DNA of 64,000 bases, from contig NW_027266275.1 in NCBI RefSeq assembly GCF_022045235.1, positions 7,006,001 to 7,070,000 of the forward strand, written 5' to 3'. The notes under the pieces are model-generated. The model was not told the origin of the DNA and did no database searches. It was given only the letters and a program-made list of their open reading frames with translations. This document shows positions 19,401 to 46,278 of the stretch, piece after piece (positions within the stretch are counted from its first letter, which is position 1; each line of letters begins with the position of its first letter). The position numbers and the translations under genes are program-made. This DNA comes from Haliotis cracherodii. Its lineage: Eukaryota.

Positions 19401-20265
19401 GCACCTGACCTTAGACAATCTTCAAATATTATCATCTACGATACAAAGACTTTTCTAAGATACTGTGTCCTTGACGTGAACATTGATTCGAAGCAGCTCA
19501 AAGACCACTTCCTCTACCCCTTATTTCAATTTCTTCATCTGTTGGATGTTTTTGTAGAATGACAGCGGTGGGCCTTTGATGTGTTATCGCAATGGCCGTA
19601 TGGAAATAATTGGTACGTATGGCAAAAACACGTAGACATTGGGTTATATAATGACCTAATGAGAGTGTCATTAGTTTAGCAAGAATGAATTATATGTAAT
19701 AAAAAAGAAAACTGAGATAATCAAAGCAGTCCTTTCTGAAAAGGGTTGATTCTTTGAATGCCTATATTATATACACTAAATGTTAATTTGTAATGAGCCC
19801 TAACCAGGAGCTTGGTTGTTTTGGAAACAGATAATTTCATGGATATTGGTATGGCGTCAGCGTATCCCAAAGATAATGAATTTGCGTTGGTTTGTAACAA
19901 CAGCCACCGTTCATAATGAACCGTCAAAGTATGCCATAAATATGAGTGTTCATCGTTGCAAAATTCTATGTCGTCAATATATTATCAAGTAAGTGTCTAG
20001 ATATGGACATTTTATTTCTTCATGACATAGTGAGTTAAATAGATAAAGTGAGTAAGGGCTATAATGAATAGAGAAAAAATGATAAGATTTTAACCTAATT
20101 CATATTTGTCCTAGGAGATACATTATCATGTAGCCGACCTTAACCAGGTTACATATTTCAGGAACCGTCAGCTGGGGCTTTGGCTGTGGTCAGCCGAACT
20201 CTCCAGCTGTATATGCAAGTGCAACGAGCGCCAGACAATGGATTGTAGCTACGATTAATGCTTAA
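16454..20265 (+). CDS. Trypsin-family (S1A) serine protease, copy 1, intact, secreted
   Basis: Exons 16454-16496 (signal MLGLWFLVLACLTS), 16801-16934 (RKR|IVGG), 17431-17528 (TAAHC), 17925-18190 (HDSGL, GWG), 19224-19369 (KDPCK), 19558-19612 (NDSGGP), 20162-20265 (VSWGFGC..PAVY, TAA). AATAAA near 20357. Confidence 0.93.
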
Positions 20266-22026
20266 AAGGCCTAGTTGAGACCAATACATGTGCAACTTCA
20301 ATACAGACTTTCAAAAGATTCGTCACAGTTTGCTTTCACCATGTGTGTAGAAGAACAATAAAATCGACAAAACCTTTGCCAGCAGAGTCGATTGTACGAT
20401 TCAGACTATATCAGGGACACGTGTTTATGAATCACTAGCAAATAGTGATGAATCCAGGTGTTCGTGAAAAGCATGGCGAACAATGCAATTTTACAATTCT
20501 TGGACGAAGTGTAGTCAACCCCAAATAAGGATAGACGATTTGCCTCGTAATACCGCCACAGCATGTAATGAAACGTTCTCATTGCCAGTCATGCCGTGAT
20601 AGTACGAGTGATATGGTGTACCACGTCTTAGGTAGTGGGATTATATACATGTACGGTAATATGTAATGTAACCCGGGTGTTGTCTATAGTGCCATCACTC
20701 ACCTTTGACATTGTTGTGTGAGACACACACTTAAACCACGACACAACTGAGAGGTATTTCTTCCAGATCGTTAATTCCAGTAAAACTCATACGACGCAAT
20801 ACCCAATGTCCATTGTTAATGGTTCCCACAACACCTATGTGAGGCCGTACTGCCCAAGGGCTGCATATTATTGCTGAATGTAAATTAGCCACGAGTCTAA
20901 TGACACCTTGTGTTACTTATTTTCATTAACTAAATATAACTGGGTGGTAAATAAATGTCACCGTATCTTTCATATAGAAGATGTCCATAAAAGTTCATAC
21001 ATTTTGTCCAAAATCTGTGAAACTCTTGTGTTCATGTGACACTTTTTTTTAAATGTTTGTACAAGCATGTACGCTGCACTTACTGCATGGTTCTGAAAGT
21101 GCCCCGCCTCCCTTTCAAGCTATGGCAGAGTTTCGTACATGAAGTTACCTGAAATATATATCTCAAACTTCTCCGTACGTTTGCACACTAAGATATTCTA
21201 CCCAACGAAATGGATTATAATACACGGAGTCATTACTGGTAGTTATTTTGATTAGCTACAGCATTATGTTAGCTACAGTAATAATATAGCATGTTTCAAG
21301 TTACCTGCTGAGATATCTCTGTAGAGTATGCCCTGTGGCCTGAACAGTCAAATCGGTGACAGCTATCATAAAACACCAACGCCTGCTTATCTCATCTGAA
21401 AACCCTGTCCTACAATGTTTTGAATGATATGGTGTCCCTAAGAAGAATATGCCAGCACTTCTGTGTTTCTGTGTTTTAGGGAATCTTGCATCAGGTAAGA
21501 AAACAATTATGCGGTGATACTGCGACAGTAACAGATCAAGTATTCGTCCGAACCATCGCTCCCTTCCTTTAAATGACAGTATTCAATTCTTTCCTCTTTG
21601 TTGTGTGAAAACGCGTAAATATGCCCAATTCAACGCAAATTGTACATGTACGTCCTGTATTTTCATTATGTCGAACAAATGAAAGGGAAGGTAATATGAG
21701 AATACAAATACCTTACACGTTTATTGTGGCTGAATCAAAATTATACTTGTGTTTAACTATTTTGTATCCTGAATATCAGTGTTAATTCACAGCTAACAGG
21801 TCGCATGAGACGACATGCAAGTTGCTTCAAAATTAGCTATCTATACGTAATACTTGTATAAAGAACTGATACAAATACCTTAGTTCGTTTGATATTAAAT
21901 TTATCAGTAACGAGGGACTTGTGAATTGACCTATAAGTTAGAGTGACACTGCTCCACTGTCTGGCACACATTTTCAATGAAGGTCAAGACATTATGTTCA
22001 TTACCATGTCTGTGTCTCTATTGTAC

Positions 22027-22155
22027 GGGGGCGGTCGGGTAGCCTAGTGGTTAAAGCGTTCGCTCGTCACGCCGAAGACCCGGGTTCGATTCCCGACATG
22101 GGTGCAATATTAATGTGTGAAGCCCATTTTTAGTGTCCCCCGACGTGATATTGCT
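22027..22155 (+). mobile_element. Family-A tRNA-derived SINE, 3' truncated
   Basis: Head nearly identical to that of the 7552-7718 copy. Confidence 0.85.
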
Positions 22156-22159
22156 GTCT

Positions 22160-22650
22160 CTGCTGTACGGCAATCATGCATCTGAACGTAACATCTAATC
22201 CAGTGACATTTCACATCATGCGTGAACAGCTTGTAGTGTAGGGAAACTCACAATCACTAATGCAATTGAGCTAAGCACTCGCTTAAAATGCCTTCGAGAA
22301 AGTATCTCAGTGAAAAGACAAATGGCAAGGTGTCCTGTTAAGTTTACCATAGGCGGCAAAGAATTGGGGTTGGCTGGCAGCACCAGGGACGGGCTGTGCA
22401 CCAGTGATGTTACACCATGTCTGCAGACGAATAAAGGTTTTGCGTCAGATTTACAGAGGACAGAAAACGTTGTTGGTGACGTGTGCTAGAATTATCGCAA
22501 ACATTTTGAACTGCAAGATGGCAATGTCAGTCGACCACATCGTGCCCAGGTCTTCGCCGATTATCTCCGTAGAGAGGGCATATGGACATTAGACCATCTA
22601 AGTCCCCTGACATGTCCCCAATACAGCATCTGTGGGATGTTCTCGAGTGG
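22160..22650 (+). mobile_element. Decayed Tc1-like transposon fragment
   Basis: Conceptual translation gives LQDGN..RPHRA and SKSPDMSPIQHLWDVL, with frameshifts. Confidence 0.65.
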
Positions 22651-22660
22651 AGAGTGTACG

Positions 22661-22723
22661 CCTCACCTCACCTCACCTCACCTCACCTCACCTCACCTCA
22701 CCTCACCTCACCTCACCTCACCT
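22661..22723. repeat. (CACCT)n microsatellite
   Basis: About 12 copies, directly visible. Confidence 0.97.
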
Positions 22724-23590
22724 TCACTTTCTTCCGCCGACAGCACTTGACATTTTACTGACACTTCAGTTCATGTATGACTCATGTATTTCATTTTCTG
22801 CCGCCAATAATATTAGAGACAAATAACAAACAAAAGTGCACATGTGATCAACTTTTTGAAAATACGTTCTTTGAACACGTGTTGCTGATATGGGTTAATT
22901 TGAATTTGACGTAGACGTTGGAGGTTGGAACAAGCACACATTTTACCCAATATGTACAATACTTTACTCAGATTGAACATCTGAAGTCTTCACTTTAATA
23001 TTTAATTATACTCATTACATAATACATCAATGTGTTCGTGATTGAATTGGCAGGTGTATTGAGTGATATAGAACCTCCTGGATGTGGGATCAATGATGTG
23101 GGCTTTGATTACACCACCCTACCAAAGACAGCCAGGAAACGCATTGTTGGTGGACAACTCGCCACACCACATTCCTTCCCATGGATGGTAAATAAAGTGT
23201 ATACCGAGAAGGATCTCACAAACATATTCATATCAACTCATTGTTGAAATATCAAATTTCATGAACAAGCAATAGGTAAATTAACCACATGTATTCACGA
23301 ATGGCTGACAATACCAAAGTTAAAAATGGATATTTTGTTCTTTGAACTGTTGTTATATATACATATTTGACGTTATACATGATTGTATTAACATTGTTGT
23401 TTTTTATGATTTTAGCTCTGTGAAAGATTCGGTCATGATATGGACAAAGGGATCAGTGAGGGATATTATGATAAGGCGCACGACATTAAACATACATGGA
23501 TAAAAGAAATTAATAATCCAGCTCCAGGACAATGATGATGTTTTAATAGTCCAGTCATTACGTGGTGACTTGTAACACAATCGAGTCTGG

Positions 23591-24131
23591 GCCCATCTTC
23601 CCGAGGTAAGGGCGTTAACTGATTGTAAAAGTCAGAACTTGTCGAACTAGGCTGGAATTCGTAGTTACATTTTGGCTGAATTAACGATTCTAGTCCAATC
23701 AAAATCGCGTAACGAACTAGACTTCCGGTTCGTAAACATCATGGATTTCAACGTGCAGATTCCTGTTGACTGCAGGATTTGCAAAGCATGTGTACCGTCA
23801 ACTGGGCGTCGAAAGAATTTTCAAAATCGTTTCATGTTTGTCTATAAGGTGCTCAAGTAATTTGATGCATTGATGTAATACACGTTTTGTTATAAAGTAT
23901 ATCTTGGGTATTGATTAGATCGTCTTGACTGAGCGCCTCCATGTTGTTTAAAGAAATTGACAGAGGTGTGGGAGACTGAATCTGATTGGTCACTAAGAGG
24001 GACAAAGAAGGGATATAACTCGTAATAGCCCCTGGTGGCGAGACGATGAAGCCTGGAAATTCCAAACTAGTTTGACAAGGGTGGAAAGTGGACTTTCATA
24101 GCCAGTTAACGCCCTTGCCTCGGGAAGATGG
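23591..24131. mobile_element. About 540-bp non-autonomous TIR element (MITE)
   Basis: Left ccatcttcccgaggtaagggcgttaactg matches the reverse complement of the right end cagttaacgcccttgcctcgggaagatgg; flanked by (g)tctgg duplication; empty site in the paralogous intron near 42231-42240. Confidence 0.8.
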
Positions 24132-25244
24132 TCTGGACCAGGTCAGACAAGTGAATGAGAGTATAAGCAACAACGCACACCATCAGGGTACAATGACACA
24201 CTATTCACCACGTTACAGAGTCTGACCAACCGAGCCTCATTTTAACACTCGGTTCATATGACAAGCAAAAGGCACACAGAATCGCCATAGGATTCAAATG
24301 TCAATTTACCATACAGAGACCATGTCATACCAAGAAACACTTTGGTGAAATAGAATATCTTTATCACCACAAAACAGAATAAAATCAACTCTGTATTAAT
24401 CAATCGTTCAGTCGAACGTCTTCTGATAGGTATAAAGGAATACTAGTGTATTTAACCTTACACAACTACACAACAAGATAATTTAAAACAAAATAGAGCA
24501 TCACGATATAGACTAACTAGATATAGCTGCATGTTCTCTGTCCATGTGTGTGGACTGCCAGTGACTTACAACGAGAAAGAATGCACAGTTATGAAATTGA
24601 TACTATAAGAGATAACATAATATGTATTGAGGTAATTCAACACGTGGGCATTCATCTCCATGTTTCACATGTTAGCTCTGTTAAAAGATTACTAGTGCCT
24701 ACATATCGTTGTCCATGTGAAGGGCATAAAGGTCCATGGCATGTGTATATATTAGTTTTCAGTAGTAATTGTTTGGTCTAATACATCCACTGATGACCCA
24801 GAAGCAGTTGATGTCCAAGCACATAATGATTATCGTAACAACTGATGAAGGTGAGGATGATTAGGCCGTGACAATTGCAATGTGTGACCTGGTTGAATTT
24901 GTGTCCTTGTACCCTTACAGCCCCTGATGCTATGAACCACTGCTTTGCCTGGCCGTGGAATTGTAGACCGTTGCTGACTAAGACGTATGATAACATTCAC
25001 TCACTGCCTGTACCGATGTCTCTAGGCTGCTCTTGGACATCGTGCTGTTATGCACTGTGCTGGATCACTTCTGAAAGGAAGTTCTGACAGGTGGTAAATC
25101 CTAACTTCTGCCCACTGTTTGCAGTAAGATGTCGACACCTAAACATACTTTAATTTAGAAGTGTTACAGTAGAACTGCACTTCTTATGAGGTGAAGTGTG
25201 AAATTTGGTTCAAGGTCGCCTCCAACATTATTGCCCTTATATAG

Positions 25245-25440
25245 NNNNNNNNNNNNNNNNNNNNNNNNNNNNNNNNNNNNNNNNNNNNNNNNNNNNNNNN
25301 NNNNNNNNNNNNNNNNNNNNNNNNNNNNNNNNNNNNNNNNNNNNNNNNNNNNNNNNNNNNNNNNNNNNNNNNNNNNNNNNNNNNNNNNNNNNNNNNNNNN
25401 NNNNNNNNNNNNNNNNNNNNNNNNNNNNNNNNNNNNNNNN
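25245..25440. other. Assembly gap
   Basis: Run of N adjoining a 44-bp tandem repeat. Confidence 1.
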
Positions 25441-25707
25441 TCACATCACAGCATTTCGGATTGATATAAAGGGAGAACCCAGGGTCACATCACATCATGT
25501 CAGATTGATATAACGGGATAACCCAGGGTCACATCACTGTATGTCAGATTGATATAACGGGATAACCAAGGGTCATATCACAGCATGTCAGATTGATATA
25601 ACGGGGGAACCCAGGGTCACATCACAGCATGTCAGATTGATATAACAGGATAACCCAGGGTCACATCAATGCATGTCAGATTGATATAACGGGATAACCC
25701 AGGGTCA
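25441..25707 (+). repeat. 44-bp minisatellite in intron 3 of protease copy 2 (at least 6 copies)
   Basis: Unit cccagggtcacatcacagcatgtcagattgatataacgggataa; period 44 (25478, 25522...). Confidence 0.93.
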
Positions 25708-27243
25708 TGAAGGTCGTAGATGTGTTTCATGTTTATCTTACAATGAACACATGAGCTTGGGAAATCACTCGTTTCCAAAATGTATTTTTTCTAAAAGAGT
25801 ATGAACACATATTACAAAATGTAAAATGCCATAATGAATGCTGCTAGGTTATGAAATAGTTCAAATATATTGTTCAATGGAGCATATATCTTCTGTATCA
25901 GCTTAATGTCATCATAATGTAATTTTTTTTTATTTGTACCTGACATGTCAGTGGAACAATGGCGTCCGACTGGAAGATTCGCCTTGGCGCTCATGATCTC
26001 TCCCAAAACGAAAAATCCTCTGAGTTCCATGACGCAAAGACTGCGATGACCCAACCTCTGTTCAACCCAACAACATATGAGTCTGACATTGGGCTTATTG
26101 AGCTAAGTAGCGCCCCACTGGTATCTAAGCCTGAAATCAACTTTGGGTGTGTTTCCGGCAATGTCAGTAGAGCAGGAGAAGTATGCTATGTCGCCGGATG
26201 GGGAACTACCTCTTTCGGTATGTTTATAGGTTCATTATACTAACCGAAGAGTGTATAGATGATTGACTGTATGTGCACAGGTATTGTTTACAAATAAGAA
26301 CAATATTTTGAAAGCAGTCTTGTTATGTTAAATTGGGTTCTCAAAGTACGTAGTAAGAATAGTTTATCACATTGAGGATAAATGGCTCTTCTTGACAATG
26401 GTTCTGTCAACTGGACAAGTGGGCAGTCTTGATGTCCCTGTCCAACATTTCATTTTGTCAGTAAGTCATATGTATGCTACTGTGGTCTAGGATGAAAACT
26501 GTGTTGTTTTTATATTATATTAACTCCATTTAATTTCATTATTGCAAAGACAAATATTAACCTATTACCATACGTATAAACTGTGACTGTACCAAATAAT
26601 AGGAGATTCGCTGATGATAAATTGTACTTATACGGGGCGCTGTATCAGATGAGCTACGGGTTGTCGAAAAGCCCGTCCTGTCACGCACCGAATGTAGGAA
26701 CATATACGGCTCTAACCAGTACCATGATGCCTCAATGATTTGTGCAGGCCATCCGGATGGTGGAAAAGGTTCTTGCACTGTAAGTACCATGGTTTATTAA
26801 TCGTTCAAAAAAGGTCAAATAGACAGTTCCCTTCCAGAGCTAGATATAAAAGAAGCCAGTGAAACCACCACATCTGCTTTATATGTCATCATAAAGCATA
26901 CTCAAAACGCTACTTTAATACCTAGTCAGTGGATATGTGTGCAATCGATTTCCATGAACAGCTCCCTTCGGAGTATACAACCTAAGCTGCCTGGGAAGCA
27001 CCATGAGGTAACAGTCACTGTATGGTGAGGATATATAGAATCTTTGGAACTAAATTCAGAAGGTTTTATGGGAATTTTACTACTCCTTACATGTTTCAAG
27101 CTATTCTATACAATCTGAAAACGCATGGTTTCCCATGTCGTAGACGCTGAGATATTGTGTTAGTGTTTGTGTTTTGGTATTTACGCAATTTATAAGACGT
27201 AGTTTTGTTACATAACGATAGCCTTCATATCACTATTAAGTAA

Positions 27244-27388
27244 GGGCGGTCGGGTAGCTTTAGTGGTTAAAGCGTTCGCTCGTCACGCCGGAGACCCGGG
27301 TTCGATTCCCGTTATGGGTACGATGTGTGAAGCCAATTTCCGGTGTAAAAGCCAAAAATCGGCGTAAAACGATACTCAGTCACTCACT
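27244..27388 (+). mobile_element. Family-A tRNA-derived SINE, internally deleted
   Basis: Same head and CACT-type tail as other family-A copies. Confidence 0.82.
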
Positions 27389-29889
27389 ACTATAAAATAT
27401 CACGTGACCAGAACCAACAAAACCCGCAGGTATTTGTGACAGAAATATGTCTCACGATCCAAACTGTTCATAGAAAAGCAAATAAGTATCAAAACAAGAC
27501 GAATTCTTTAACACCAATTTCATTTTGCACTGCTTTTATCTAGTGAATAAGTAAAGAAATGAATTCACTTTCAGATTTGTATCAAGCTTAGACTAGTGGT
27601 AGAATCTATCACTTGTATAGTCTGTAGCTCATTTGATGAAAAGAGAACATGTATTTACAGAGAGACAGCGGAGGACCTTTGATGTGCTTCCAAAACGATC
27701 ACATGGAGATAATTGGTAAGATGTCAGTTCAGGAGAATCAACACATACGAAATGCTCGTGGTGATGGCATCAAGGTTTCAACCAGATTAGTATTCCAGCG
27801 TAAGGCCCATCTATTGTTGTCCTAGTCCCTTTGAGTAACAACGATCTGTAATTATGTTTTGAAGGCTTCATCTTGTCGTGTCCATTACATTTGCAATATC
27901 GCAACATGTTAAATCATACGAAGGGAGGCAACTCTGCTTACGTTGCAAAAACAAGACCCAACTCAGAAAAGCTGTCAGTCAAATTTAGCTACTAGCAAAT
28001 GTCCACATGGTGATAAGGTCATATGCTATATGTAAATTTTAACATTATGGACGGCTAAACGTTTCACTTTCCAGCCAAACCCGAAATATATCATGGCATG
28101 TGGAATTTTCAAAAATAACAATTTTCAGTAACAGAGGAGAAATTCTGACACCACTTTAGGAAAAGGTCCTGAATATCTTGAATCTATTATTGACCGCGTT
28201 TGTCCAGTGAGGATTGTTCAAGTGTAAGTTTCTCTACTCTGGTGTTTCGTAATCATATTGAATTGTAGACTCATATTAAGACATATAAATATCATTTCTC
28301 GAAGACATCACCTTATCCTTGTTTGCAGGAATTGTGAGCTGGGGCCCTGGTTGCGCTCAGCCCAACTTTCCAGCCGTCTATGCTAGTTGATCAGGAGGAA
28401 GGCAGTGGATTGAAGCTACCATAAATGAATAGACGGTTAGTGAAATAAAACGAATGAGTTGCACTCGCATATTCCGTTTTCCCAGGTTACATTATTTGTA
28501 AGGATGTTTCTTAAAGACCTTGAAATAAGAACATTACATAATGATTGTTCTCGTAAGTGAAAACAGGAGCCTAACTTAACCAGTCTCGATTATCCGGTGA
28601 AATAATTTCTATTGGGCGTAAAAGAAAATGGGTGAAAATGAAAGGAATAGATCACTGAAAATCAGCAATGACATCAGGTGTTCGCGAAAAATGTAAGCAT
28701 GTCATGTTCTACCGGTTGTACCCCCCACTAACACAATGTGCATGAAAATGTATGACATTGTATTTGTTGCCAGAAATGACACATTACATCATGTCAGCAT
28801 TCGATTGTCATTGACAGCATCCTCAGTGAAGGTTATAGTGTGTTTCAACCGCTGGTGTAACGTTGACTAAATATGACACTATTGGAAAGAATGTAAGTGT
28901 GTCGATACACGGAACTTGCTGAAATGAAACGCCGTATAATAACATACGTAGAGTAAAAAGTAACAAAACCGTTTCCGTGATCATACGAAATCTCTGAAAA
29001 AAGCGTCCAATGTACCATTCCGGCTGTATCATAAGCATGTGTAATGTGTACCTAATACTATCACTATTTGACAGTGATTCATATGAACTCTTATGTCTTA
29101 TGATCATTGATATGTTTTTTTGTTGCTTATATTTTATAATCACTGTTGGATAGTGATTGCGAAATGTTGAACGTATCCTGTCCCAACGGTGACACTCATC
29201 ACAAACACATGCAAAGGCCAGTTGATAGTTCACATGAAAAAACACGGGAGCAAATGGTGTGTTTTTTTTATTTTAGTTATATTGTTTGTTTTTAATTGCT
29301 TCTTATGTTGGGCGTATGATGTGTATGGTTAGATATGAATCTCCAGTAAAAAGGATGTCTTTGTCATTTATATTGCCATTAACAACCAAATTGTTAAGAA
29401 TTCATAATATTAAGCACTACGTTTTAAGAACCTTTTCGGGAACACCTGATGTCATCACTGATTTTCTTTGATCAATTCATATATTTGATCTGCTATTTTG
29501 CCTCACGCCAAATGGATATCCTCTGGCGTTGAAGTTATATATTTACCATGAAACATTTTGAAAGCCTTTCTATGGTCTTGAAAGTTGAAACCCTGATCAA
29601 AGACCTTTTCAGCAAGAGTCGTACGAAATCTTTGTAGATAGATGCTTGATTCTACCTGAAAAGTAACCATAAAGATTCAGACAGTGATGGACAACAAACA
29701 CAATTAAAGACAATTAATTGGCCCACCAAAGAAACTGACAAATCGCATGTCGACGAAGCGTCTAGACCTGAAACTGAATCAAAGATTATGGCAAACTTAT
29801 TTGCATCTTTCTTCATCACTGAATCGGACGACGATTTCACGGAATGTGATGTTCCATTTTCTGGAGAACCTATACTATACCAAGCTTCT

Positions 29890-31510: not shown

Positions 31511-31734
31511 ATAGATATCAATATCGTCTGTGTGTTGGCTGTTATGTCGCTTCGAGAAGTATTCGAGTTATTTACATTTCAACCTTATGTCAGCTTCAAG
31601 CCAAACTTGATGCAGATCGTAGACGTTTAATATGATGAAACCCACCAGACATTTAGTTCACAAACCAAGAATCGTAGAGGATCGAGGCATTATCCACGTG
31701 CATCAGTAACAAAGAAGCTAAGTTTGGCAAATGT

Positions 31735-32145: not shown

Positions 32146-32605
32146 ACCTAACCAGCCTGACTGTGCCAGGATCACCCAAACCCTCTTTGCTGCATTTCTT
32201 ATTTTAATCTGAAAATATTTGTACAAGCATGTACGCTGCACTTTCTAAAGAGTACCGATAGTGTCCCGCCTCCCTCTCAAACTATGACAGAATTTCGTAC
32301 ATGTGGTAATACATACCTCAAGCTTCTTATCATTTTCAATGACTGCTGCACGCCAAATGTAGATTCGTGCGTTTCACACTAAGTTATTACACCCAAAGAA
32401 ATAAATTATGATACCAATGTAGTAATTATTTTTATATTACGTTTGTGTTGAATTGACACATAACATGGTCTCAGCGAGTCATTACTGGTATGTCAGAATG
32501 TTGCTCATTATTGAGTGACAGCAATTATATAACACCTACGCTCACTGCTTATCTAATCTGAAAACAACCTTGTTCTATAGTGGTGTTGGTGTCAACACGA
32601 AGAAT

Positions 32606-35600
32606 ATGCCAGCACTTGTGTGTTTCGTGTTTGTGTATCTTGCTTCAGGTAGGATTTAACTACGCAATTATACTGCGACAGTAACTCCATCGCTTCCTTT
32701 CTTCCAAAGATAATATAGATTTCGTTCTTCTTTGTTGTGTGAAGTTATTTCACTTGAATATGCATAATTCTACACAAATTGTAAGTCCTGCTTTTTTCCT
32801 GTATCTCGAACAAACGAAAGGAGTATAACATTAGAATACGAATACCATACATACGTTCATTATGACGGAATTAGAATGATACTTATTAGGCTTAATACAC
32901 ACAAAACAGGTCAGATAAGACGATATACAATTTGCTTAAAAAATGGCAGTTAAAATGTATTACTTGTTCCAAACATGTATACAATTGCCTGTGGTTGTGT
33001 GATATTGCAGTTATCATTGATTAGTGATATATGATTTGACCTATAAGATGCTCATGATGTCGATCACTGGATTGTCTGGTCCAGACTCGATTATTTACAG
33101 ACTGACGTCATATAGCTGGAATATTGCTGAGTGCGACGTTAAACAACAAACAAACAAACAACCTATAAGTTGCTGCTCCACTGACTGGCGCACATTTGCA
33201 GTGGAGTTCCAGACATTATGTTCATAACCATGTTACAAACAGGAACAGTGTCTCAGCTTTACGTTGAGATTCATACACATCATAATACATGTGCGTTTTG
33301 AATTACTTGAATTTAGCTTGTTGGGACTGCCAATTTACCACAGCCTATATCATCGACAGAAAACAAGGAACTAATAATTTGTATGTAGATTACAAAACCG
33401 TGACATGGATCTGAACACACTCGCTTTGAAACGCCTCCGAGATAGTAACTCAATGGACAGTCAAAATGGCGTATTGTGGATACTATAGAGGTAGAGGGGA
33501 CGTCAAAATCCCAAGTTGTCCTATTGTTTGGCAAATCAAAAAGTGTAATTTCTCGACTGTGGAACGAGTGCCGTCAAACGGGTGAGGTTGCAATGAGACC
33601 TGGGAGTGGCACACCTAAACAAAAGACACCAATACAACGACATTTCAATACATATATTGCACTATGCAATAGATTCAAATCTGCTTCTGTTATCAATAGA
33701 GAATTTAGTACAGTAACGGGAAGGTGAATTTCAACACTACCGTTACAAACTGTCTCTCTGCTTCTCTCCTGAAAGCAAGGCTTCCTGTGAAGGGTGTTCC
33801 CAACAGCTTCTCATGGGCGGCAACGATTGGGGTGAGCTAGGCAACACCCGTTTTTGTCCTTAGAGGCAGGATACGCTCACGTGTTCGCGAACACCTGGAC
33901 TCATAACTATTTGATAGTGATTCATAAACACATGCTCATGATATAGTCGGAATCGCTAAATCGACTCAGCTTTATGGAGAGATTTCTATGATATATGGAA
34001 AGGCTTTTGTTGCTTTAGTTTTATTGCTACATCCAGACCTCTAGAGGTTGTCCCGAAACTCTTGAATTGTGAAGCCTGCCATGTTCATGTACAAAATCAT
34101 GATAACTCCACTCTCTTTCGAAAACAGCACACGACATTTTACTGACCCTTCAATCATTCGCTGCCAATGATAAATACAAATATATTTCATTTTCAACATC
34201 CACTAATAATACTGACATTAACTAATCAAAAGTGCACATGTAATTAACCTTTAGGAAATATTGAAATTTTGAACACGTATTGAAAATATCAGTGGAATTT
34301 GAATTTTATGTAGACGTTGTTGTTTTAAGCACAACTTGTACCTAATATGTGCAATACTTTACTCAGATTGAACGTTAAGTAAGTCTTCACTTTTTATATA
34401 ATTATGTTCATTACATAATACATCAATGTGTTCCTGATTGTTATGACAGGAGTCTTGAGTAATATAGACCCTCCAGGATGTGGGATCAATGATGTGGGCT
34501 TTGATTACACCACCCTCCCAAAGGCAGCCAGCAATCGCATTGTTGGTGGACAAATCGCCACACCATATGCCTTCCCATGGATGGTAAATAAAGTGTATAA
34601 CGAAAGGGATCTCACAGTGTAAAACTGTTAATCAGATTAACTCATTGCTGAAGTAGAAAGTTTCATGAAGCAGAGATAGGTGAATTAACCGCATGTATTC
34701 CGGAACGGCTGACAACACCAAAGTTAAAAATGAATAATTTGTTCTTTGAACTGCCGTTGTGTATACACATGCAACGTTATACATGTTTATATTGTTCATC
34801 GATGAACACCGTAACAACCGATGAATGTGAAGATGACTCGGCCTTTACAATGTGTGAACAGGTTGAATTTGTGTCCTTGCACCCTAACAGCCAGAATCGT
34901 CTCTGATGCTATGAGCTTCCGATTTGCCTGGCCGTGTAATTGTTGACTATTGTTGACAAAGACGTAATACAATGTTCACTCACTGACTGTATCGATGTTT
35001 CTAGGCTGCTCTTGAAAAGCGTGGTGTTCTTAATTGTGGTGGGTCACTCCTGAAAGGCAGTTCTGACAGGTGGTACATCCTAACTGCTGCCCACTGTTTG
35101 GAGTAAGTTGTTGACACGTAAACCTACTTGAGTTGATATAAAGACATGTTACTATAGAATAAGACTGAGTGAGTGAGTGAATTAGAATCGCCTCTGTGAA
35201 CTGTATTTGAGTCATGGCACAGCATGTCAGATTGATTTGAGGGGATCACCCAGGGTCACATCACAGCATGTCAGATTGATGTGTGGGGATCACCCAGGGT
35301 CACATCACAGCATGTCAGATTGATGTGAGGGGATCACCCAGGGTCACATCACAGCATGTCAGATTGATGTGAGGGGATCACCCAGGGTCATGGATGTCAT
35401 ACACGTGTATCACGTTTATCACGTCTCATTATGAACACATGAACTTGAGAAATCACACCAACGTTTCAATGTAAGTATTCTCAGCAGTATGTACAAATCA
35501 ATTTTCGCTAGTCGCTGTTTGAAACATATTTGAAATTATGAATGTTGCTAGATTATAAAATGTTTGAAATATATTATACGATGGAACAACATCTATCTTT

Positions 35601-37871
35601 GGTATCAGAAAAAAGAAGCGTTTGTTACAAATCATTATTTCTGTTTGTCAGTGGAACTATTGTGTCAGACTTAACGATTCGCCTTGGCGCTCATGATGTC
35701 TCCAAAAATGAACCTTCCTCCGAGTCCTATAACGCAAAGACTGTGATGTCACACCCTCTGTACAACCCAACTACAGTAGAGTATGACATTGCGCTGATTG
35801 AGCTAAGTGGCGCCCCACTGGTATCTAAGCCCGAAATCAACTTTGGGTGTGTTTCGGGCAATGTCAGTAGAGCAGGAGAAGTATGCTATGTCATCGGATG
35901 GGGACTTACCTCGAACGGTATGTCTACAGGTTCACTGTTCTACACGGACAGTGTATAAATGATTGAATGTAAATGCATAGGTATTTTTTCTATTAAGAAC
36001 GGGTTCTCAAAGTTCTCGAAAATCAATGATGTTGTAAAAAGAAATAGTTTATCATTTAGAGGATAAATAACTCTTCTTGTCAATGTATTTGACAACTGGA
36101 CAAGTGGGCAGTCTTAATGTCTGTATCAAACATTCCATTTTGTCAATATATTTTAAGTATGTCACTGTGGTCTAGGACACAAAACACAATTGCAAATGCA
36201 ACACAAATATTAACTTATTACCATATAAACTGTGACTGTACCAAATAATATGAGACTCCCTGATGATAAATTGTAGGAGGCGATGCATCAGATGAGCTCC
36301 TGATTGTTGAAAAGCCCGTCCTGTCACAAACCCAATGTAGGGACATATACGGCTCTAACCAGTTCCATGAAGCCTCAATGATTTGTGCAGGCCACTCAGA
36401 AGGAGGAAAAGATTCTTGCACCGTAAGTACGACTTAGTAATCGTTCAATGAAAGTGGAATAGACACTCCCTTTCCACAAATCTAAACACGGTACTGGAGC
36501 CAGAAATAAAGAAACCAGAGAAACCGCCCCATCTGTTTCATATGTATGTCAGTTAAATTATAATGTGCACATGTGCCAAGCATTCTCAAAACGATACATT
36601 ATTACCCCAGCCAATGGATTTATGTGCACTCGATTTATATAAGTTCACGTCTTTCCATGTCGTAGACACTGAGATATTGAGCATACATATTAAGTGTTTA
36701 ATGGCTACTGTTCTCGAAGCCAAACTGTGTTTGGTATTTACGCAATTGATAAGAAGCAGTTTTGTTATTAACGATAGCCTACATGTTACTATTAAGCATC
36801 GCGTGACCAGAACCAACAATACCCGCAGGTATTTGTGACAGAAATATGTCTCACGATCCCACCTGTCCGAAAGAAAAGCAAACAAGTATCAAGAAGAGAA
36901 TATTTCTTTACACCAAGTTCATTTTGCACGGCCTTTACATTGTGAATTAGTAATGAAAAAAGTTTACTTTCCTATTTGTATCACTATTAGACTTGTGGTA
37001 GAATCTGTCACTGTTTCTCTGTAGCTCATTTGATAAAAAATTAACATATATTACAGTTGGACAGCGGGGGACCATTGATGTGCTTCCAAAATGATCGTAT
37101 GGAGATAATTGGTAAGCTGTCATTTTCAAGACTTTTCTCACAAGTGATACATACAAAATGCTCATGTGAATGGCATAACATTTTCCAGTAAATCAGTATT
37201 CCAACTTTAGGCCACCTACTGCTTTCAGCTGTGGAAGTCCATCTGATTACGATCTGTAATTGTAATCATGTTTTGAAGTCTCCAATGTCATGTCAATTAC
37301 TTAAAAACATATGTGCAATATCAAAAAAATGTCCAATCATATGACGGGAGGTAACCCTACCAACGCCTCAAAAACAAGACGCAAATATGAAAAGCTGTGA
37401 GTTAACATTGGCTGGCAAACGTCATATGTAATATGATAATATCAACATTATTAACTGCATTGTTCATGCTGTGTGGAATTTCCAACAACTGTCAACAGCA
37501 GCGGACAAATTCATTTTGACACTACTATACGAAGTGGTCCTGAATAAATACCTTGAATCCTTTAGACCGTGTTTCGTTTCTGTTGGGTTTTTCAAGAGTA
37601 CTTATCCAGTAATGCTTGTTGGAGTGTACGTTTCTCTTCCGTGATGTTTTGTAATCATATTCAATTGTAGCCTTTACAATGAGTACACAATGTTACAATA
37701 AAACGTATCAGAACTTCTCGCAAAGTCATCAGTTGTACATGAGACATTATCCTCTTCGTGTTTGCAGGAATTGTGAGCTGGGGCTATGGTTGCGGTGAGC
37801 CCAACTTTCCCGGCGTCTATGCTAGTGCAACGGGAGGAAGGCAGTGGATTGAAGCTACTATAAATGCATAG
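32606..37871 (+). CDS. Trypsin-family serine protease, copy 3, intact
   Basis: Exons 32606-32648, 34450-34583 (SNR|IVGG), 35005-35102 (TAAHC), 35652-35917 (YDIAL), 36277-36422 (KDSCT), 37057-37111 (LDSGGP), 37768-37871 (VSWGYGC..PGVY, TAG). Confidence 0.92.
33048..33161 (+). mobile_element. Family-B element, 3' half
   Basis: gatgctcatgatgtcgatcactggattgtctggtccagactcg...(AAAC)n; acctataag is repeated on both flanks. Confidence 0.8.
33470..33900 (+). mobile_element. Decayed Tc1-like transposase, N-terminal fragment
   Basis: ORF 33476-33727: [28 protein letters not shown] (paired-like HTH and GRPR-like motif). Confidence 0.7.
35217..35390 (+). repeat. 44-bp minisatellite in intron 3 of protease copy 3 (4 copies)
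   Basis: Unit cacagcatgtcagattgatgtgaggggatcacccagggtcacat. Confidence 0.93.
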
Positions 37872-39309
37872 ACGATCACTAAAATAAAACGAATGAAACG
37901 CACACCATATTCTGTTTACCCTGGTTTCATTATTTGTGAAACATATCGGATGTTTCCTAAATGGCCCTAGGAGAAGAACATTTATAACATAATGATTGTT
38001 CTTGTTAATGAAAACAGAAGGATAACCTTAATAATATGAATATTAGACAACGACAAATAATAACAGCCTCGGATATCCGTCGAGATTCTATTTGGCGTAA
38101 AAGGTAAAAAAGCAGTGAGAAATTATGTGAATGGATCACTGAAAATGAGCGATGACACATGAGCAGTGATGATGCCATGCGTTAATCGTATCCTGCCCAA
38201 CCGGTGCCAGATTTCACATCACATGCAAAGGCCAGTTCACCTGTACAAACGCGGAAGCACAATATGGTGTTTTAGTTTTATTTCAGGCATACATGTTACA
38301 TCTTGAAAGTGGTATATGTTTTATTGATTCTTATACTGGGTGTATGATGTGTATACTTAGATACGAATCTACAGTAAACATAGTTAGTCTTTGCCATTTG
38401 TATTGCCATAAACAACCAAATTATTAAAAATTCATTTTGTCAAGCACTGTGTTTTAAGAATACGGAATATATGGTCACTGAGGCGTCGAATTTGGAAATG
38501 TCTTCCACAAGTTTGATCACCTGGTATTAGCACTGATTTTCGTTAATAATTCATATAATTTATTTTCTATTTTGCCTTACGTTGGCAGAATCTACCAAGT
38601 CGCCATGCCATACCACCCGATCCAGTCATTCACTTCTTACGACAAGCATAGGTTGCTGGAGACACTTTCTTCCCCGTAATCCACACGGGGTGCTCAAGTT
38701 TTATGCTCTCGTACCATAGCATAGGGTTCTAAGACAACAAAATGTAAACAATATCAAATGAGTAAGCTCTTGTATCTTTTACTAAATACCTATATTTTAT
38801 ATGAAATATGATAATTGATGGCAAGCGAATACATATAACTTGTACTTGTACACACTTCTGGTTAATTGAAAACATCAACGCCAGAGAATAATCAGTATCG
38901 ATTTCGAGCGGAAACAGATTCCTTTGGGACTTCAAAGATAAAATAGTGATGAAAATTATATCAATTGATCATTAAATATTGGTGATAATACCAGGTGTTT
39001 GCGAAAAGAGTAAGCATGTCCTCCCACTCAAACAATTTTCATTAAAATAGTAAGTGTTTGTTTGTTATCTGATGTCACACCCAGCAATACCCCTTCAAAA
39101 GACAATGCAGCGCTCATTTTCATGAGCAATAATCCACGTCATGGTACATGCTGTAACCCTGTCAGTAATTAGTATCACCCGCTCCATTGAAATAAGTGCC
39201 AGTTGGTAAAGAGTGAGTGAGTATGGTTTTACGTCGCTTTTAGCAATATTCCAGCAATATCACGGCGCGGGACACAGTAGGTAAAGGAGTATGTATGGCT
39301 CCAGCTGTC

Positions 39310-39570
39310 AGTTGGTGGGCCTTTGTTGAGTTATCGCGATGGCCGTATTGGTACGTATGGCAAAATAGACGTAGATATTGGGTTATATAATAACGCAATG
39401 AGAGTGTCACCAATGTAGCAAGAATGAATTATGTGTAATAAAATAGTTCTGAGATTACCATTGCAGTCCTGTCTGAAAAATGACGTGGGCGTATCTCAAA
39501 GGATATCAATAACTTTGTGTTGCTGTCGAAACATAGTCACCGTTCATAATGGACCGTCAAAGTATGCAAT
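39310..39570 (+). pseudogene. Relic of protease copy-1-type exon 6 and following intron
   Basis: ggtgggcctttgttgagttatcgcgatggccgtattggtacgtatggcaaaa... aligns by eye with about 19567-19940. Confidence 0.75.
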
Positions 39571-40370: not shown

Positions 40371-43300
40371 ATGCCAGCACATCTGTGTTTCGTTTTAGCT
40401 TGTCTTGCATCAGGTAAGCTATTGTAACTGATCAAGGATTCGTCCGAACCATCGCTTCCATTCTTTAAAAGACAGTATGACTTCTTTCTTCTTTGCAGTG
40501 TGAATCTATTTCACAAAAATACATTATTCAACACAAACTATACGTCCTGTGCCTTTGGTATCTCAATTCAAATTAAAAGGAAGGTAATATTTAAATACCA
40601 TACATATTAAATATATTATATAATGAATTATATCATATGTATATTATGATATAATTTAACTTGTGTTTTGTGTCTTATCTTAAATATATCGGCCCATTAC
40701 ATGTTGCAACGATGCTACCGACAATTTTTAACATTTCTTTTCTCAAATTATTAGCATAAAAAATAAACATTCCCATATTTTGTAAGGTATTCGAATTGTT
40801 TTCAGACATTAACATGTTAAATTTGTGTAAACTTGGAAATATATAATACTTTTTGGGGAAATTATAATTAATGCCTTAAAGAGGTACCTGCACATGCTCC
40901 GTTCTTGAATCCGTAATAGTCTTAGTACCTGGCAGGAATTCAGTGTTTGTTTCCGATAAATATCCAATCCGCACTTCGCAAGTAAAATAAGACACACATC
41001 TGGTAGAAAAAGGCCTCGCATCGTCCTCTTGTCGCTCTTATATAGGTACAATCAGGCTTCTAGAAACTGGCCCAACTCGAAACCCCTCGAATGATGAACC
41101 CTGCCTTGTTTATAAAGACAATGGCAATAACTCTAAATTCAATTCCCATCCGCCGACAGCACTCGACATTTTACTGATAATTACCCCCTAATATATTTAC
41201 TTTTCTACAGTCCCTGATATTACCGACAAATAATAAGCCAAACGTGCACATGGGATCAACGTTTTGACAATAATTTTTTGTTGCTGATATTGGTGGAATT
41301 TGAATTTGGTGTAGGCGTTGTTTGAATAATTACAACTTAATATGTACAATACCTTACTCAGATTGAACTTCACGTGAAATCTTCACTTTTATATTTAGTA
41401 TTGTTAACTACATTATACATCATTGTGTTCCTGATTGTATTGACAGGAGTCTTGAGTTATATAGATCCTCCTGGATGTGGAATCAATGATGTGGGCTTTG
41501 ATTACACCACCCTCCCAAAGACAGCCAGGAATCGCATTGTTGGTGGACAAATCGCAACACCACATTCCTTTCCATGGATGGTAAATAAAGTGTATACCGA
41601 AAAGGATCTCACAAACTACACAGTGTAAACATGTCATTCATATGTATGAAGATATGTCTTCAGCAACCCTTCAGCTTGCCGTAAAAGGCGACTATGCTTG
41701 TCGTAAGAGGCGACTAACGGGATTGGGTGACCAGGCTCGCTGACTTGATTGATGCATGTCATCGTATCCCAATCGCGTGGATCGATGTTCAGGATGTCAA
41801 TCCCTGGATTGTCTGGTTTAGACTCGATTATTTACAGACGGCCGTCATATAGCTGGAATATTGCTGAGTGCGGCGTTAAACAACAAACAAACACATCATA
41901 TTAGCTTATTGCTGAAGTATTAAGTTTCAGAGACAGGTTCATGAACCACATGTATTCCAGAATAGCTGACAATACCAAAGTTGAACTGCTGAACTGCTGT
42001 ATACTGTCGTATTTACTGACGTTTTACATGTATGGACTGACATTTTGTGTTTTATGAGTTTATCACCATGAAATATTCGGTCATGATATGGAACAATGGT
42101 TTAATGGGATGAGTGATGATAAAGCACACTGCATAAAACATACAATTTAAATACAATTTAATAATGTCGCTCTATTTCATGAATAATGCGGGAATATGCC
42201 AGTCTTATCGTGGTGGATTGTAACACAATTGAGTCTGGACAAGGCAAACAAGTGATTGAAAGCATGAACAACAACACAAACCATCAGGGAACAAAGGCAC
42301 ACTATTCACCACGTCACAGTCTGACCAACCGATTCTCATTTTACCATTCGGTTCTTATGACAAGCATGAGGCACTGAAAACCTTTTTACTGACATAGAAA
42401 ATCGTCATACAATTAGCATGTGGAGGTACAATGACCATGTCATTCTAAGAAACTATTTGGTGAAATAGAAAATATTTACGAGTACAAATTGGATTTAAAT
42501 CAATTCTTTATAAATCAACTTACGAACATCTTCTGATAGCTTTAATGGAATAATGGTGCAGTTGACCTTTCACACAAAAATCTACGAAACACGATAATTG
42601 GAAACAAAATAGAGCATCAACATATAGACAAACCAGATACAAGTAAATGTATTCTGTACATGTGTGTGGACTACCAGTGACCTACCACGGAGAAAGATGA
42701 GAAACAATGCACCCTTATGCACTTTAGAGTATACATAATATGTAATGTGTATTGGGGTAATTCAACACGCGGACATCAATCGCTATGTTTCATATGTTAA
42801 TCTTTATTGAAAGATATACACGTGCCCTACATATCGTTGACCATGTGAAGGGCATACATGGGTCTGACATGTGTTTTCAGTAGTAATTGTTGTTATTATA
42901 TATCCATTGATGACCCAGAAGCAGTTGATGTCCCAAGCACCTGATACTTATCGTAACAACTTATAAATGCCGTTACAATGTGTGACCTGGTTGAATTTGT
43001 GTCCTTGTACCCTAACAGCCTGATGCTCTGATGCTATGAGCTTCTGATTTGCCTGGCCGTGTAATTGTTGACTATTGTTGACTAAGACGTAATACAATGT
43101 TCACTCACTGACTGTATCGATGTTTCTAGGCTGCTCTCGAAAGGCGTGGTGTTCTTAATTGTGGTGGGTCACTTCTGAAAGGCAGTTCTGATAGGTGGTA
43201 CATCCTAACTGCTGCCCACTGTTTGTAGTAAGTTGTATACACGTAAACCTACTACATAGTAGAGTTGATATAAAGACATGTTACAATATTCATGTACTTT

Positions 43301-46278
43301 TTATAAGTAAGGAAATGTCAAATATTATCATTCACGTAAGTGAGCGCGTGAATGAGTGAGTTTCTTTGGTTGCTCCAGTCATGTTATGGCATGTCAGAAT
43401 GATGTCAGGGGATACACCAGGCTCATGAAGGTTGTAGACATGTATTATATTTATCCCGTCTCACTATGACTACATTTCCATGAGCTTGAGAAATCACACG
43501 TTTACAAAATGTAAGTATTCTGAAACAATATGTACAAATGAATATTCGCTAGTCGGTTTTAAAAATGATTGCCATCATGAATGTTGCTAGATTATGAAAT
43601 GTTTGAAATATATTGTAAAATAGAGCGTTTATCTTTGGCACCAGTTCAGTGTGAATCATTAATATTTATAAGAGAAATATTTGTTTTGACATTATTTCTG
43701 TTTGTCAGTGAAACTACTGTGGCAGACTTAAAGATTCGCCTTGGCGCTCATGACCTCTCCAAAAACGAACCTTCCTCCGAGTCCTATGACGTAAAGACTT
43801 TGATGTCACACCCTCTGTACAATCCAATTACAATTGAGTATGACATTGCCCTGATTGAGCTTAGTAGCGCCCCACAAGTATCTAAGCCCGAAATCAACTT
43901 TGGGTGTGTTTCCGGCAATGTCAGTAGAGCAGGAGAAGTATGCTATGTCGCCGGATGGGGACATACCTCGTACGGTATGTCTTAAGTTTCATTATACTGA
44001 CCGAAGATTGTATAAATACCTGAATGTGAATGCATAGCTACTTTTTCAAATTTTGAAAGTATTTTAAAAGCATAACAATGCTTAGCAAGCACAATCCTGA
44101 GACGTTAAACGGCGTTCTCAAAGTTCACGAAAATCAATGATGTAGGAAGAAATAGTTTATCATATAGAGGATAAATTACTCTTCTTGTTAATGTGTTTGG
44201 CAACTGGACAAAGGGGCAGTCTTGATGTCCGTATCCAACATTCAATTTTGTCAGTAAATTAAAAGGATGTCACTGTGGTCTAGGATGAAGGAATATGCTG
44301 TTTTCAAAATAATTGTTAAACAATTTCATCACTGCAACACAAATATTAACTTATTTCCATACGCATAAACTGTGACTGTATCAAATAACAGGAAACTCCT
44401 TCATGTTAAATTGTACTTATAGGAGGCTCTACATCAGATGAGCTCCAGGTTGTTGAAAAGCCTGTCCTGTCACAAACCCAATGTAGGAACATAGTCGGCT
44501 CTAATCCGTTCCATGAAGCCTCAATGATTTGTGCAGGCCACTCAGAAGGAGGAAAAGATTCGTGCTCCGTAAGTACCATGACTTATTATCAATCGTTCAA
44601 TAAAGGTGAAATAGCCAATTCCCTTCCACTGAGATAGAAAAAAACCACTGAAACCGCCTCATCTGTTTCATATTTATGTCTATTAAATCACAATGTGTAC
44701 ATGTGCCAAATCCACACTTTAAAGCTTACTCAAAACGATGCATTATGACCCCAGCCAATGGAATTATGTGCACTCGATTTCATGCTCAGCTCTCTGGGGA
44801 GTATAAAAGACAACATGCCTTTGAAGCGCTCGAAGGTTTACAGTCACTGCTGGGTGAACAGATACATGTATATAGTGAGTGAGTGAGTGAGTATGGTTTG
44901 ACGCCGCTTTTAGCAATATCTCAGCAATATCACGGCGGGGGACACCAGAAATGGGCTTCACACAATGTACCCATGTCGGGAATCGAACCCGGGTCTTCGG
45001 CGTGACGAGCGAACGCTTTAACCACTAGGCTACCCGACCGCCCCGAACAGATATATAGAATTAGTGGAACTAAAATTCAAAAGGTTCATGGGAATTAATT
45101 AGCTACTCCTTAAAAGTTTAAAGCTGTTCTATACAATCTGTAAACGCCATTTTATGGTTCCCCATGTCGAAGAGATTGAGATTTTCTGTTAGTGTTAGCA
45201 TACATATTTATTATTTAATGTCTACAGTATCAAGTGACCAGTCACAATAATACCCGCAAGTATTTGTGACAGAAATATATCTCACGATCCCACTTTCCAT
45301 AGAACAGCAAATAAGTATCAAAAGAAAACTATTTCTTTAACACCATGTTCATTTTGCACTGTCTTACATTTGTGAATTAGAAATTAACTGAATTCACTTT
45401 CCCATTTGTAACAAAGCTTTTAAGGTTGTGGAATCGGTCAGTTGTACTTCGAAGCTGATTTCATAAAAAAATGAACATATGTTACAGTTGGACAGCGGAG
45501 GACCTTTGATGTGCTTCCAAAACAATCGTATGGAGATAATTGGTAAGGTGTCATTTTCAAGACATTTCTCAGAAGTGATGGCAATGACATCACACTTTCC
45601 AGTAGATCAGTATTCCAGCGTTGGGTCACCGTATGCTTTCAGTTGTGCAAGTCCCTCTGAGTAACTGTAATTGTAATCATGTTTTGAAGTCTTCATCCTG
45701 TAATATCCATTTTTAATGAAAACATATTTGCAAAAACGTGTCCAATCGTATGAAGGAAAGTAACTCTTCGTACGGTCCAAAAACAAGAACTAGATAAGAA
45801 AAGCTTTGAGTTATCTTTGGCAGGCAAATCTCCACATGACATATGTCAATCCAAATATAAACTGCTATATGTGTTCACATCACAGCCAAACACAAAATAT
45901 ATCAGGCCATGTGGAATAGTCAACAACAACTTTCAAGAACAGGGGGGATTTCATTTTGACACCGAAATGGACCTTGAATCCTTCATTGACCGTGTTTCGT
46001 TTCTGTTGTGTTTTTCAAGAGTACTTATTCATGATCGCTCGTTTCCCTACTGTGGTGTTTTGTAATCATATTCAATTGCCTTTACAATGAATACTCAATG
46101 TTACATTAAAAGGTGTCAGAATTTCTCGCAGGAAATCAGTTGTACATGAGATATTATTCTTTTCATGTTTGCAGGAATTGTGAGCTGGGGCAATGGTTGC
46201 GGTCAACCCAACTCACCCGGCGTCTATGCTAGTGCATCAGGAGGAAGGCAGTGGATTGAATCTACCATATACGCATAG
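40371..46278 (+). CDS. Trypsin-family serine protease, copy 4, intact
   Basis: Exons 40371-40413, 41447-41580 (RNR|IVGG), 43130-43227 (TAAHC), 43709-43974 (YDIAL), 44423-44568 (KDSCS), 45488-45542 (LDSGGP), 46175-46278 (VSWGNGC..PGVY, TAG). Confidence 0.92.
41650..41892 (+). mobile_element. Family-B short interspersed element
   Basis: Near full-length copy with (AAAC)n tail. Confidence 0.85.
44874..45044 (-). mobile_element. Family-A tRNA-derived SINE, full length
   Basis: Almost identical to 7552-7718; gaacagata..tatag on both flanks. Confidence 0.9.

What the first reader, a model, noticed from the sequence alone, without database searches (positions are those of the whole stretch)
19558..45542. 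Every protease in the cluster replaces the oxyanion-hole Gly193 while keeping the catalytic triad
Seen: the canonical C-x-G-D-S-G-G-P reads KDPCK-N-DSGGP (copy 1, 19558), KGSCT-R-DSGGP (copy 2, 27661), KDSCT-L-DSGGP (copy 3, 37057) and KDSCS-L-DSGGP (copy 4, 45488). His57, Asp102 and Ser195 codons are present in all four. The variable codon is the first of exon 6, after an unambiguous AG. Known: Gly193 is almost invariant in S1A proteases; side chains there alter the oxyanion hole and S2' site, and in some snake-venom proteases Phe193 is linked to inhibitor resistance. Inference: three different bulky residues in four paralogues suggest a subfamily with narrowed specificity or evasion of canonical (Kunitz/Kazal-type) inhibitors.
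Basis: partly seen in the sequence, partly recalled or inferred. Interest (0 to 1): 0.7.

Follow-up and report, generated by a model that had tools for sequence, protein, structure and literature searches.

The report
Abalone trypsins without oxyanion-hole glycine
Abalones carry a tandem group of trypsin-like genes in which a nearly invariant active-site glycine is replaced in every member examined, by seven different residues, which likely (untested) helps the enzymes escape protein inhibitors much as human mesotrypsin does.

Summary
Four tandem seven-exon S1A protease genes read Asn, Arg, Leu, Leu at chymotrypsin position 193. Spliced contigs confirm the exon 5-6 joint for copies 1 and 4. 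Two corrections: copy 2 is broken (two stops, a lost splice acceptor; its Arg193 stands intact in a red-abalone orthologue), and the array runs on to a fifth non-Gly gene and four genes that keep Gly193. Copies 1, 3 and 4 match Haliotis cracherodii proteins. All 17 of 17 clade domains from four Haliotis species lack Gly193 (Leu, Arg, Asn, Ser, Met, Ala, Tyr), against 312 of 337 with Gly in other hits. Site 193 is the fastest-changing of 236 sites, while His57, Asp102, Asp194 and Ser195 never change. Its rate is no higher than neutral drift allows, so positive selection is not shown. Best reading: active, predicted-secreted proteases whose 193 side chain narrows S2' and likely weakens canonical inhibitors, as in mesotrypsin (0.4). 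Tissue and activity are unknown. Single non-Gly193 enzymes are known; I found no report of this clade, and the scan's earlier notes held nothing on it.

The parts
16454..20265 (+). Copy 1, intact 7-exon S1A protease gene (exons 16454-16496, 16801-16934, 17431-17528, 17925-18190, 19224-19369, 19558-19612, 20162-20265); Asp189, Pro190, Lys192, Asn193, Ala226
   Evidence: mature domain identical to P0003 / XP_071107184.1; joints 5-6 and 6-7 in spliced contigs
19558..19560 (+). Codon 193 of copy 1, AAT (Asn)
21449..28432 (+). Copy 2, broken gene (pseudogene or null allele): stop at 25095-25097, stop at 28388-28390, exon 5 acceptor lost at 26632-26633; Gly189, Arg193, Ala226
   Evidence: intact orthologue P0002
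27661..27663 (+). Codon 193 of copy 2, AGA (Arg)
32606..37871 (+). Copy 3, intact gene (exons 32606-32648, 34450-34583, 35005-35102, 35652-35917, 36277-36422, 37057-37111, 37768-37871); Asp189, Thr192, Leu193, Gly226
   Evidence: mature domain identical to P0011 / XP_071106864.1; joint 4-5
37057..37059 (+). Codon 193 of copy 3, TTG (Leu)
40371..46278 (+). Copy 4, intact gene (exons 40371-40413, 41447-41580, 43130-43227, 43709-43974, 44423-44568, 45488-45542, 46175-46278); Asp189, Ser192, Leu193, Gly226
   Evidence: mature domain identical to P0001 / XP_071106865.1; joints 2-3, 3-4, 4-5, 5-6
45488..45490 (+). Codon 193 of copy 4, TTG (Leu)
39296..39480 (+). Decayed remnant of a copy 1-like exon 6 and following intron
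53338..53664 (-). Orphan inverted copy of exon 2 (pro-peptide and mature N-terminus); no other exon found near it

Best explanation
This is an abalone clade of tandemly duplicated trypsin-family (S1A) genes that has lost Gly193, and its predicted-secreted enzymes likely stay active while the side chain at 193 likely crowds the S2' subsite and weakens binding of canonical protein inhibitors, as Arg193 does in mesotrypsin. Shown: gene structure, splicing, residue 193, intact triad, purifying selection on the genes, Gly193 in neighbouring paralogues. Inferred: signal peptide, activation by cleavage after Arg before IVGG with the pro-piece held by a Cys1-Cys122 type bond, Arg/Lys cleavage through Asp189 (not in the copy 2 lineage), an oxyanion hole still formed by backbone amides, and inhibitor resistance. 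A digestive role is a guess: no tissue is known.
For: 17 of 17 clade domains non-Gly, 7 residues; 268 of 292 (91.8%) background domains with an intact triad have Gly. His57, Asp102, Cys191, Asp194, Ser195, Gly196, Gly197, Ser214-Trp215-Gly216 invariant. dN/dS among the five non-Gly paralogues 0.06-0.59 where dS could be computed (7 of 10 pairs). Three genes are spliced in public contigs. Of 48 sites at least 80% conserved in the background, 193 alone changes more than twice (7 times). The other top sites (41, 97, then 60, 151, 217) line the binding cleft: among background-variable sites, 12 cleft sites average 4.0 changes against 2.0 for 112 others (p = 0.0014, descriptive). Gly does not return although Arg, Ser and Ala are one step from it. 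No beta-branched residue or Asp occurs at 193, the substitutions that most impair factor XIa (passages of PMC5551965 and PMC5524700). Precedent: mesotrypsin Arg193 confers inhibitor resistance (passages of PMC12227052 and PMC5413004); TSV-PA Phe193 does not bind extended inhibitors (passage of PMC5551965).
Against: No activity, inhibitor or tissue data. Minimum 6 nonsynonymous steps at 193 on the young subtrees against a neutral expectation of 2.1-8.6 depending on the assumed gene-wide dN/dS (P 0.02-0.86), so release from constraint fits as well. Three of three copy 5 orthologues keep Leu. Ala and Ser at 193 are small, and Ala is the mildest change in factor XIa. Cleft loops vary in all S1A proteases (changes track background entropy, rho 0.55); the cleft list was recalled and the cut-offs were chosen after seeing the counts. 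Gene conversion between paralogues could inflate counts (not tested). 25 of 337 background domains are also non-Gly, so the loss itself is not rare. One copy is dead in this genome.
Confidence: 0.4

Rival explanations
1. Substrate-specificity diversification: the paralogues are tuned to different protein substrates, and 193 varies together with 41, 151, 189, 190, 192, 217 and 226 to reshape S1 and S2'; any inhibitor resistance is a side effect.
For: Gly189 in copy 2 and P0002, Pro190 in the copy 1 group (3 of 4), Ala226 in copies 1, 2, 5; cleft sites change fastest; KLK10 pairs Pro190 with Ser193 and has mixed specificity (passage).
Against: Orthologues of one gene differ at 193 between species (Asn, Asn, Ala, Tyr in the copy 1 group; Leu to Met in copy 3), which fits a fixed substrate poorly.
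Confidence: 0.25
2. Relaxed constraint: one early change in the active-site frame made Gly193 unnecessary, and the site has since drifted near neutrally with no gain of function.
For: Rate at 193 is compatible with neutrality; seven chemically unlike residues; other normally conserved active-site neighbours also vary (43, 55, 226, 231); factor XIa stays active with Ala, Glu or Lys at 193.
Against: Gly193 is kept in about 92% of other domains and in all four downstream neighbours; 193 is the only strongly conserved site released to this degree.
Confidence: 0.25
3. Weak or non-catalytic proteins (pseudo-proteases) with a distorted oxyanion hole that act by binding.
For: KLK10 with Ser193 is zymogen-like in crystals (passage); Ala55 is Gly or Ser in two lineages; one copy is lost in this genome.
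Against: Triad, Asp194, Ile16 and all cysteines invariant in 17 of 17 domains; activation site kept.
Confidence: 0.09
4. Splice or assembly artefact: the true transcripts encode Gly193.
For: The codon is the first of an exon; copy 2 has further AG dinucleotides 2 and 4 bases downstream (out of frame).
Against: Spliced contigs give the joints as modelled for copies 1 and 4; non-Gly in records of four species.
Confidence: 0.01

Closest known systems
Human mesotrypsin (PRSS3, trypsin-3)
   Same: S1A protease with Asp189 and a side chain at 193 (Arg, as in copy 2, P0002, P0007, P0008); sits among Gly193 paralogues; Arg193 confers resistance to canonical inhibitors and is proposed to digest dietary inhibitors (passages).
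   Different: One gene with one residue against a clade of at least five loci with seven residues; distant in sequence (E about 1e-41), so convergent; inhibitor resistance is measured for mesotrypsin and untested here. That positions 39, 74 and 97 assist Arg193 is recalled; only the title of that paper was seen (not held).
KLK10 (Ser193, Pro190) and snake-venom TSV-PA (Phe193)
   Same: Natural non-Gly193 S1A enzymes; copy 1 also has Pro190 (passage).
   Different: Single members of their families; no evidence here of a venom or kallikrein role; KLK10 has an unusual N-terminus, the abalone proteins a normal IVGG.
Haliotis 'trypsin alpha-3-like' Gly193 sister genes (g6, g7 at G000:C12:7158598-7183141; P0166, P0223)
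   Same: Nearest relatives found (43-44% identity), same array, same positions for the five introns modelled, same extra residues after Cys42.
   Different: Canonical Gln192-Gly193, Ala190, Tyr or Phe rather than Arg before IVGG, and no Cys136-Cys201 pair.
RefSeq 'trypsin-like' proteins XP_071107184.1, XP_071106864.1, XP_071106865.1, XP_071107048.1
   Same: Identical mature domains to copies 1, 3, 4 and 5.
   Different: Automatic names only; the names carry no mention of residue 193.

Membership tests
Peptidase family S1A (chymotrypsin/trypsin) | Trypsin domain profile match | tested here: met
   PF00089 194.5 and 183 bits, cut-off 20.6; 229 PDB sequences at E <= 1e-30
Peptidase family S1A (chymotrypsin/trypsin) | His57-Asp102-Ser195 triad in order | tested here: met
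   invariant in 17 of 17 domains
Peptidase family S1A (chymotrypsin/trypsin) | Ile16 N-terminus after a cleavable pro-peptide, Asp194, disulfides 42-58, 136-201, 168-182, 191-220 | tested here: met
   (sequence positions only)
Peptidase family S1A (chymotrypsin/trypsin) | Gly193 of the GDSGG motif (typical, not obligatory) | tested here: not met
   0 of 17; 25 of 337 other domains also lack it, so this does not bar membership
Peptidase family S1A (chymotrypsin/trypsin) | Peptidase activity | not testable with these tools
   needs assay
Trypsin-type specificity | Asp189 at the base of S1 | tested here: met
   15 of 17 domains; Gly189 in copy 2 and P0002
Trypsin-type specificity | Gly216 and Gly226 | tested here: inconclusive
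   Gly216 in 17 of 17; Gly226 in 8 of 17, Ala226 in 9
Mesotrypsin-like inhibitor-resistant trypsins (works like) | Side chain at 193 with intact triad | tested here: met
Mesotrypsin-like inhibitor-resistant trypsins (works like) | Weak binding to and cleavage of Kunitz/Kazal inhibitors | not testable with these tools
   needs assay
Mesotrypsin (membership) | Orthology to vertebrate pancreatic trypsins | tested here: not met
   nearest relatives are Haliotis Gly193 genes; PDB hits to enteropeptidase and plasminogen score above trypsins
Serine protease homologues (pseudo-proteases) | Loss of a triad residue | tested here: not met

The most novel reading that the evidence does not exclude
Abalones evolved a whole clade of mesotrypsin-like enzymes in which position 193, together with cleft positions 41, 97 and 151, keeps changing under an arms race with protein inhibitors from food algae, pathogens or the animal itself: the most conserved glycine of the S1A active site has become a diversifying site.
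Probability: 0.22. Interest if true: 0.7.

Novelty: new variant of a known kind. Interest (0 to 1): 0.45.

Why it matters
Mesotrypsin is the textbook case of a protease escaping inhibitors through residue 193, and the idea that this evolved against dietary inhibitors rests on few examples. Here is an independent invertebrate clade with a natural series of seven residues at 193 and Gly193 sister genes in the same array as controls, so the trade-off between catalysis and inhibitor escape can be tested directly. If true it also bears on abalone feeds that contain plant protease inhibitors. If the site merely drifts, it is a modest note on how dispensable Gly193 can be.

Tried and rejected
Alternative splice sites restoring Gly: none in frame, and contigs show the modelled joints. 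Positive selection at 193: rough Poisson test inconclusive; no codon model was run because DNA was held for one species only. Structure prediction of P0001 on a 14-row alignment: low confidence (mean pLDDT 58.5, pTM 0.65, residues 224-232 just before the active-site serine under 50), not used, no fold search made. Complex prediction with an inhibitor: not run, since a lack of support could not count. Wider orthologues: two word-index searches and one full profile search found close relatives (61% or more) only in Haliotis and next hits at 44% or less, but the top 150 of the profile search were crowded by multi-domain proteins, so absence from other gastropods is not shown. Tissue of expression: runs are coded, none is on record as RNA (no RNA holder listed), and contig depth cannot rank genes. 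Papers not held: Szmola 2003, Schmidt 2008, Alloy 2015. Searches for a prior description (listings only) showed none; subscription papers and supplements were not seen and may hold expression data. Earlier scan notes: nothing by sequence, one unrelated ClpP note by words. Rows dropped before counts: P0010 (57 aa, no motif) and P0016 (131 aa fragment, Leu193).
Full report
Observation. A six-frame motif scan found four D-S-G-G motifs on the + strand at the stated places. Reading the DNA and fitting exons gave four genes of seven exons, exons 2-7 of the same lengths in all four. The intron between exons 5 and 6 falls in phase 0 between residues 192 and 193, and the first codon of exon 6 is AAT, AGA, TTG and TTG. 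The window is G000:C12:7006001-7070000 of a 1.18 Gb genome. The mature domains of copies 1, 3 and 4 are identical to Haliotis cracherodii RefSeq proteins named 'trypsin-like'.

Splicing. No run is on record as RNA, but contigs of runs guessed to be RNA skip GT..AG introns exactly as modelled. Copy 1: 19369 to 19558 in 2 of 4 runs laid (X1, X13), with no other letter in exon 6. Copy 4: 44568 to 45488 in 2 of 4 (X1, X3). For copy 3 the one row shown, from X3, reads ATG at the joint, Met, a residue also found in P0009. The transcripts therefore do not encode Gly193.

Corrections. Copy 2 has TAA at 25095-25097 before His57, TGA at 28388-28390 and AC for AG at the exon 5 acceptor. It is a pseudogene or null allele; its orthologue P0002 in H. 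rufescens is intact with Arg193. The array continues past the window. In 200 kb of flanking DNA I found a fifth gene at C12:7109820-7116862 with Leu193 (identical to P0004), two genes at 7158598-7163373 and 7179013-7183141 with Gln192-Gly193 and the same intron positions, and two more distant proteases whose exon 6 also begins with GGA at 7197514 and 7216088 (these last two were not fully modelled). None was found in the 40 kb upstream.

The clade. Searches returned close relatives only from Haliotis; the nearest outside hit was a Gly193 'trypsin alpha-3-like' protein of H. rubra, 86% identical to g6 and 43-44% to copies 1 and 4. Seventeen domains were analysed: 5 H. cracherodii (copy 2 included), 5 H. 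rufescens, 4 H. rubra, 3 H. asinina; P0010 and the fragment P0016 were left out. They form one group against g6 and g7 (bootstrap 100; no wider outgroup in the tree). Residue 193 is Leu 6, Arg 4, Asn 2, Ser 2, Met 1, Ala 1, Tyr 1, never Gly. In the other 205 proteins retrieved, 312 of 337 motif-bearing domains have Gly. The records of the other three species are gene predictions whose DNA I did not see. Numbering is by alignment to a chymotrypsinogen B domain (P0018); the column labelled 40 is residue 41 (relabelled).

Rates. Of 236 sites, 95 never change. Site 193 has 7 parsimony changes, tied for most with 41 and 97, and the highest IQ-TREE site rate; its neighbours 191 and 194-201 are invariant. 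Of 48 sites at least 80% conserved in 292 background domains, 38 do not change in the clade, 9 change once or twice, and 193 changes 7 times. Cleft positions (list recalled, written down before the rates were seen) are enriched among fast sites: 6 of 32 against 11 of 205 with 5 or more changes (p = 0.016), and 4.0 against 2.0 mean changes among background-variable sites (p = 0.0014); the cut-offs were chosen afterwards and exposure is not matched, so these are descriptive. Pairwise dN/dS among the five non-Gly genes is 0.06-0.17 for old pairs and 0.48-0.59 for young pairs, two of the three young pairs involving the broken copy; three pairs were saturated. Against selection: at least 6 nonsynonymous steps at 193 on the young subtrees compare with 2.1-8.6 expected for a neutral codon, P = 0.02-0.86 by the assumed dN/dS. 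Released constraint is shown; diversifying selection is not.

Anatomy and mechanism. Each intact protein has a hydrophobic N-terminus (signal peptide inferred by eye), a pro-peptide with one Cys ending in Arg before IVGG, the triad, Asp194, and the usual cysteines. Asp189 predicts cleavage after Arg or Lys, except in the copy 2 lineage (Gly189); Pro190 and Ala226 vary the S1 pocket further. The oxyanion hole is made by the backbone amides of 193 and 195, and active proteases do not require Gly there; mainly beta-branched residues hamper binding in factor XIa, and TSV-PA with Phe193 does not bind extended inhibitors (passages of PMC5551965). A table in PMC5524700 gives factor XIa kcat falling least with Ala and Glu and most with Asp and Val (passages); neither Asp nor a beta-branched residue occurs in the 17 abalone domains, a small sample. 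Mesotrypsin's Arg193 confers resistance to canonical inhibitors and is proposed as an adaptation to inhibitors in food (passages of PMC12227052 and PMC5413004). I therefore read the clade as active enzymes with a narrowed S2' site and likely reduced inhibitor binding (0.4), ahead of specificity tuning (0.25), drift after release (0.25) and pseudo-enzymes (0.09). All functional steps are inferred.

Comparison and novelty. The proteins are members of family S1A and may work like mesotrypsin without being related to it beyond the family. Non-Gly193 enzymes are known singly and make up about 7% of the background here. What is new is a whole clade without Gly193 in which the site has become the fastest-changing position. 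Paper searches (listings only) showed no description of it, within the limits of the library; the scan's earlier notes held nothing related. The structure model was too weak to use and tissue is unknown. Verdict: real, a new variant of a known kind, interest 0.45.

Noticed in passing
window 7792-9429 (+): Long open frame with leucine-rich repeats followed by a rhodopsin-family 7TM domain and a cysteine-rich start: an LRR-containing GPCR gene just upstream of the protease array.
   Followed up: partly
window 55630-56790 (-): Intronless glutamine synthetase-like frame (PF00120) with an in-frame TAA at about 55930 and homology-like coding sequence continuing after it: probably a broken copy.
   Followed up: partly
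window 10607-11700 (-): Tc1/mariner-type transposase in two overlapping frames (HTH_Tnp_Tc3_2, weak DDE_3).
   Followed up: partly
window 25441-25748 and 35211-35386: 44-base tandem repeat in intron 3 of copy 2 (at least 7 units) and copy 3 (about 4 units); about one unit at the same place in copy 4 near 43389.
   Followed up: partly
G000:C12:7111019-7114300 and 7118315-7119194, 7131294-7131371: Intron 3 of copy 5 is filled with a roughly 63-base tandem repeat derived from the end of exon 3; inverted partial duplicates of copy 5 exons 3 and 4 lie just downstream.
   Followed up: no
G000:C12:7158598-7183141 (L009-L012): The Gly193 sister genes g6 and g7 have Tyr before IVGG (activation would need a chymotrypsin-type cut) and lack the Cys136-Cys201 pair.
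   Followed up: no
protein P0009 (H. rufescens): The 579-residue record is two neighbouring genes (orthologues of copies 3 and 4) fused, likely an annotation error: the second signal peptide is inside it.
   Followed up: no
window 22030-22130, 27245-27345, 39211-39275, 41674-41893, 44874-45044: Short interspersed repeats that draw very high contig depth in every run laid.
   Followed up: no
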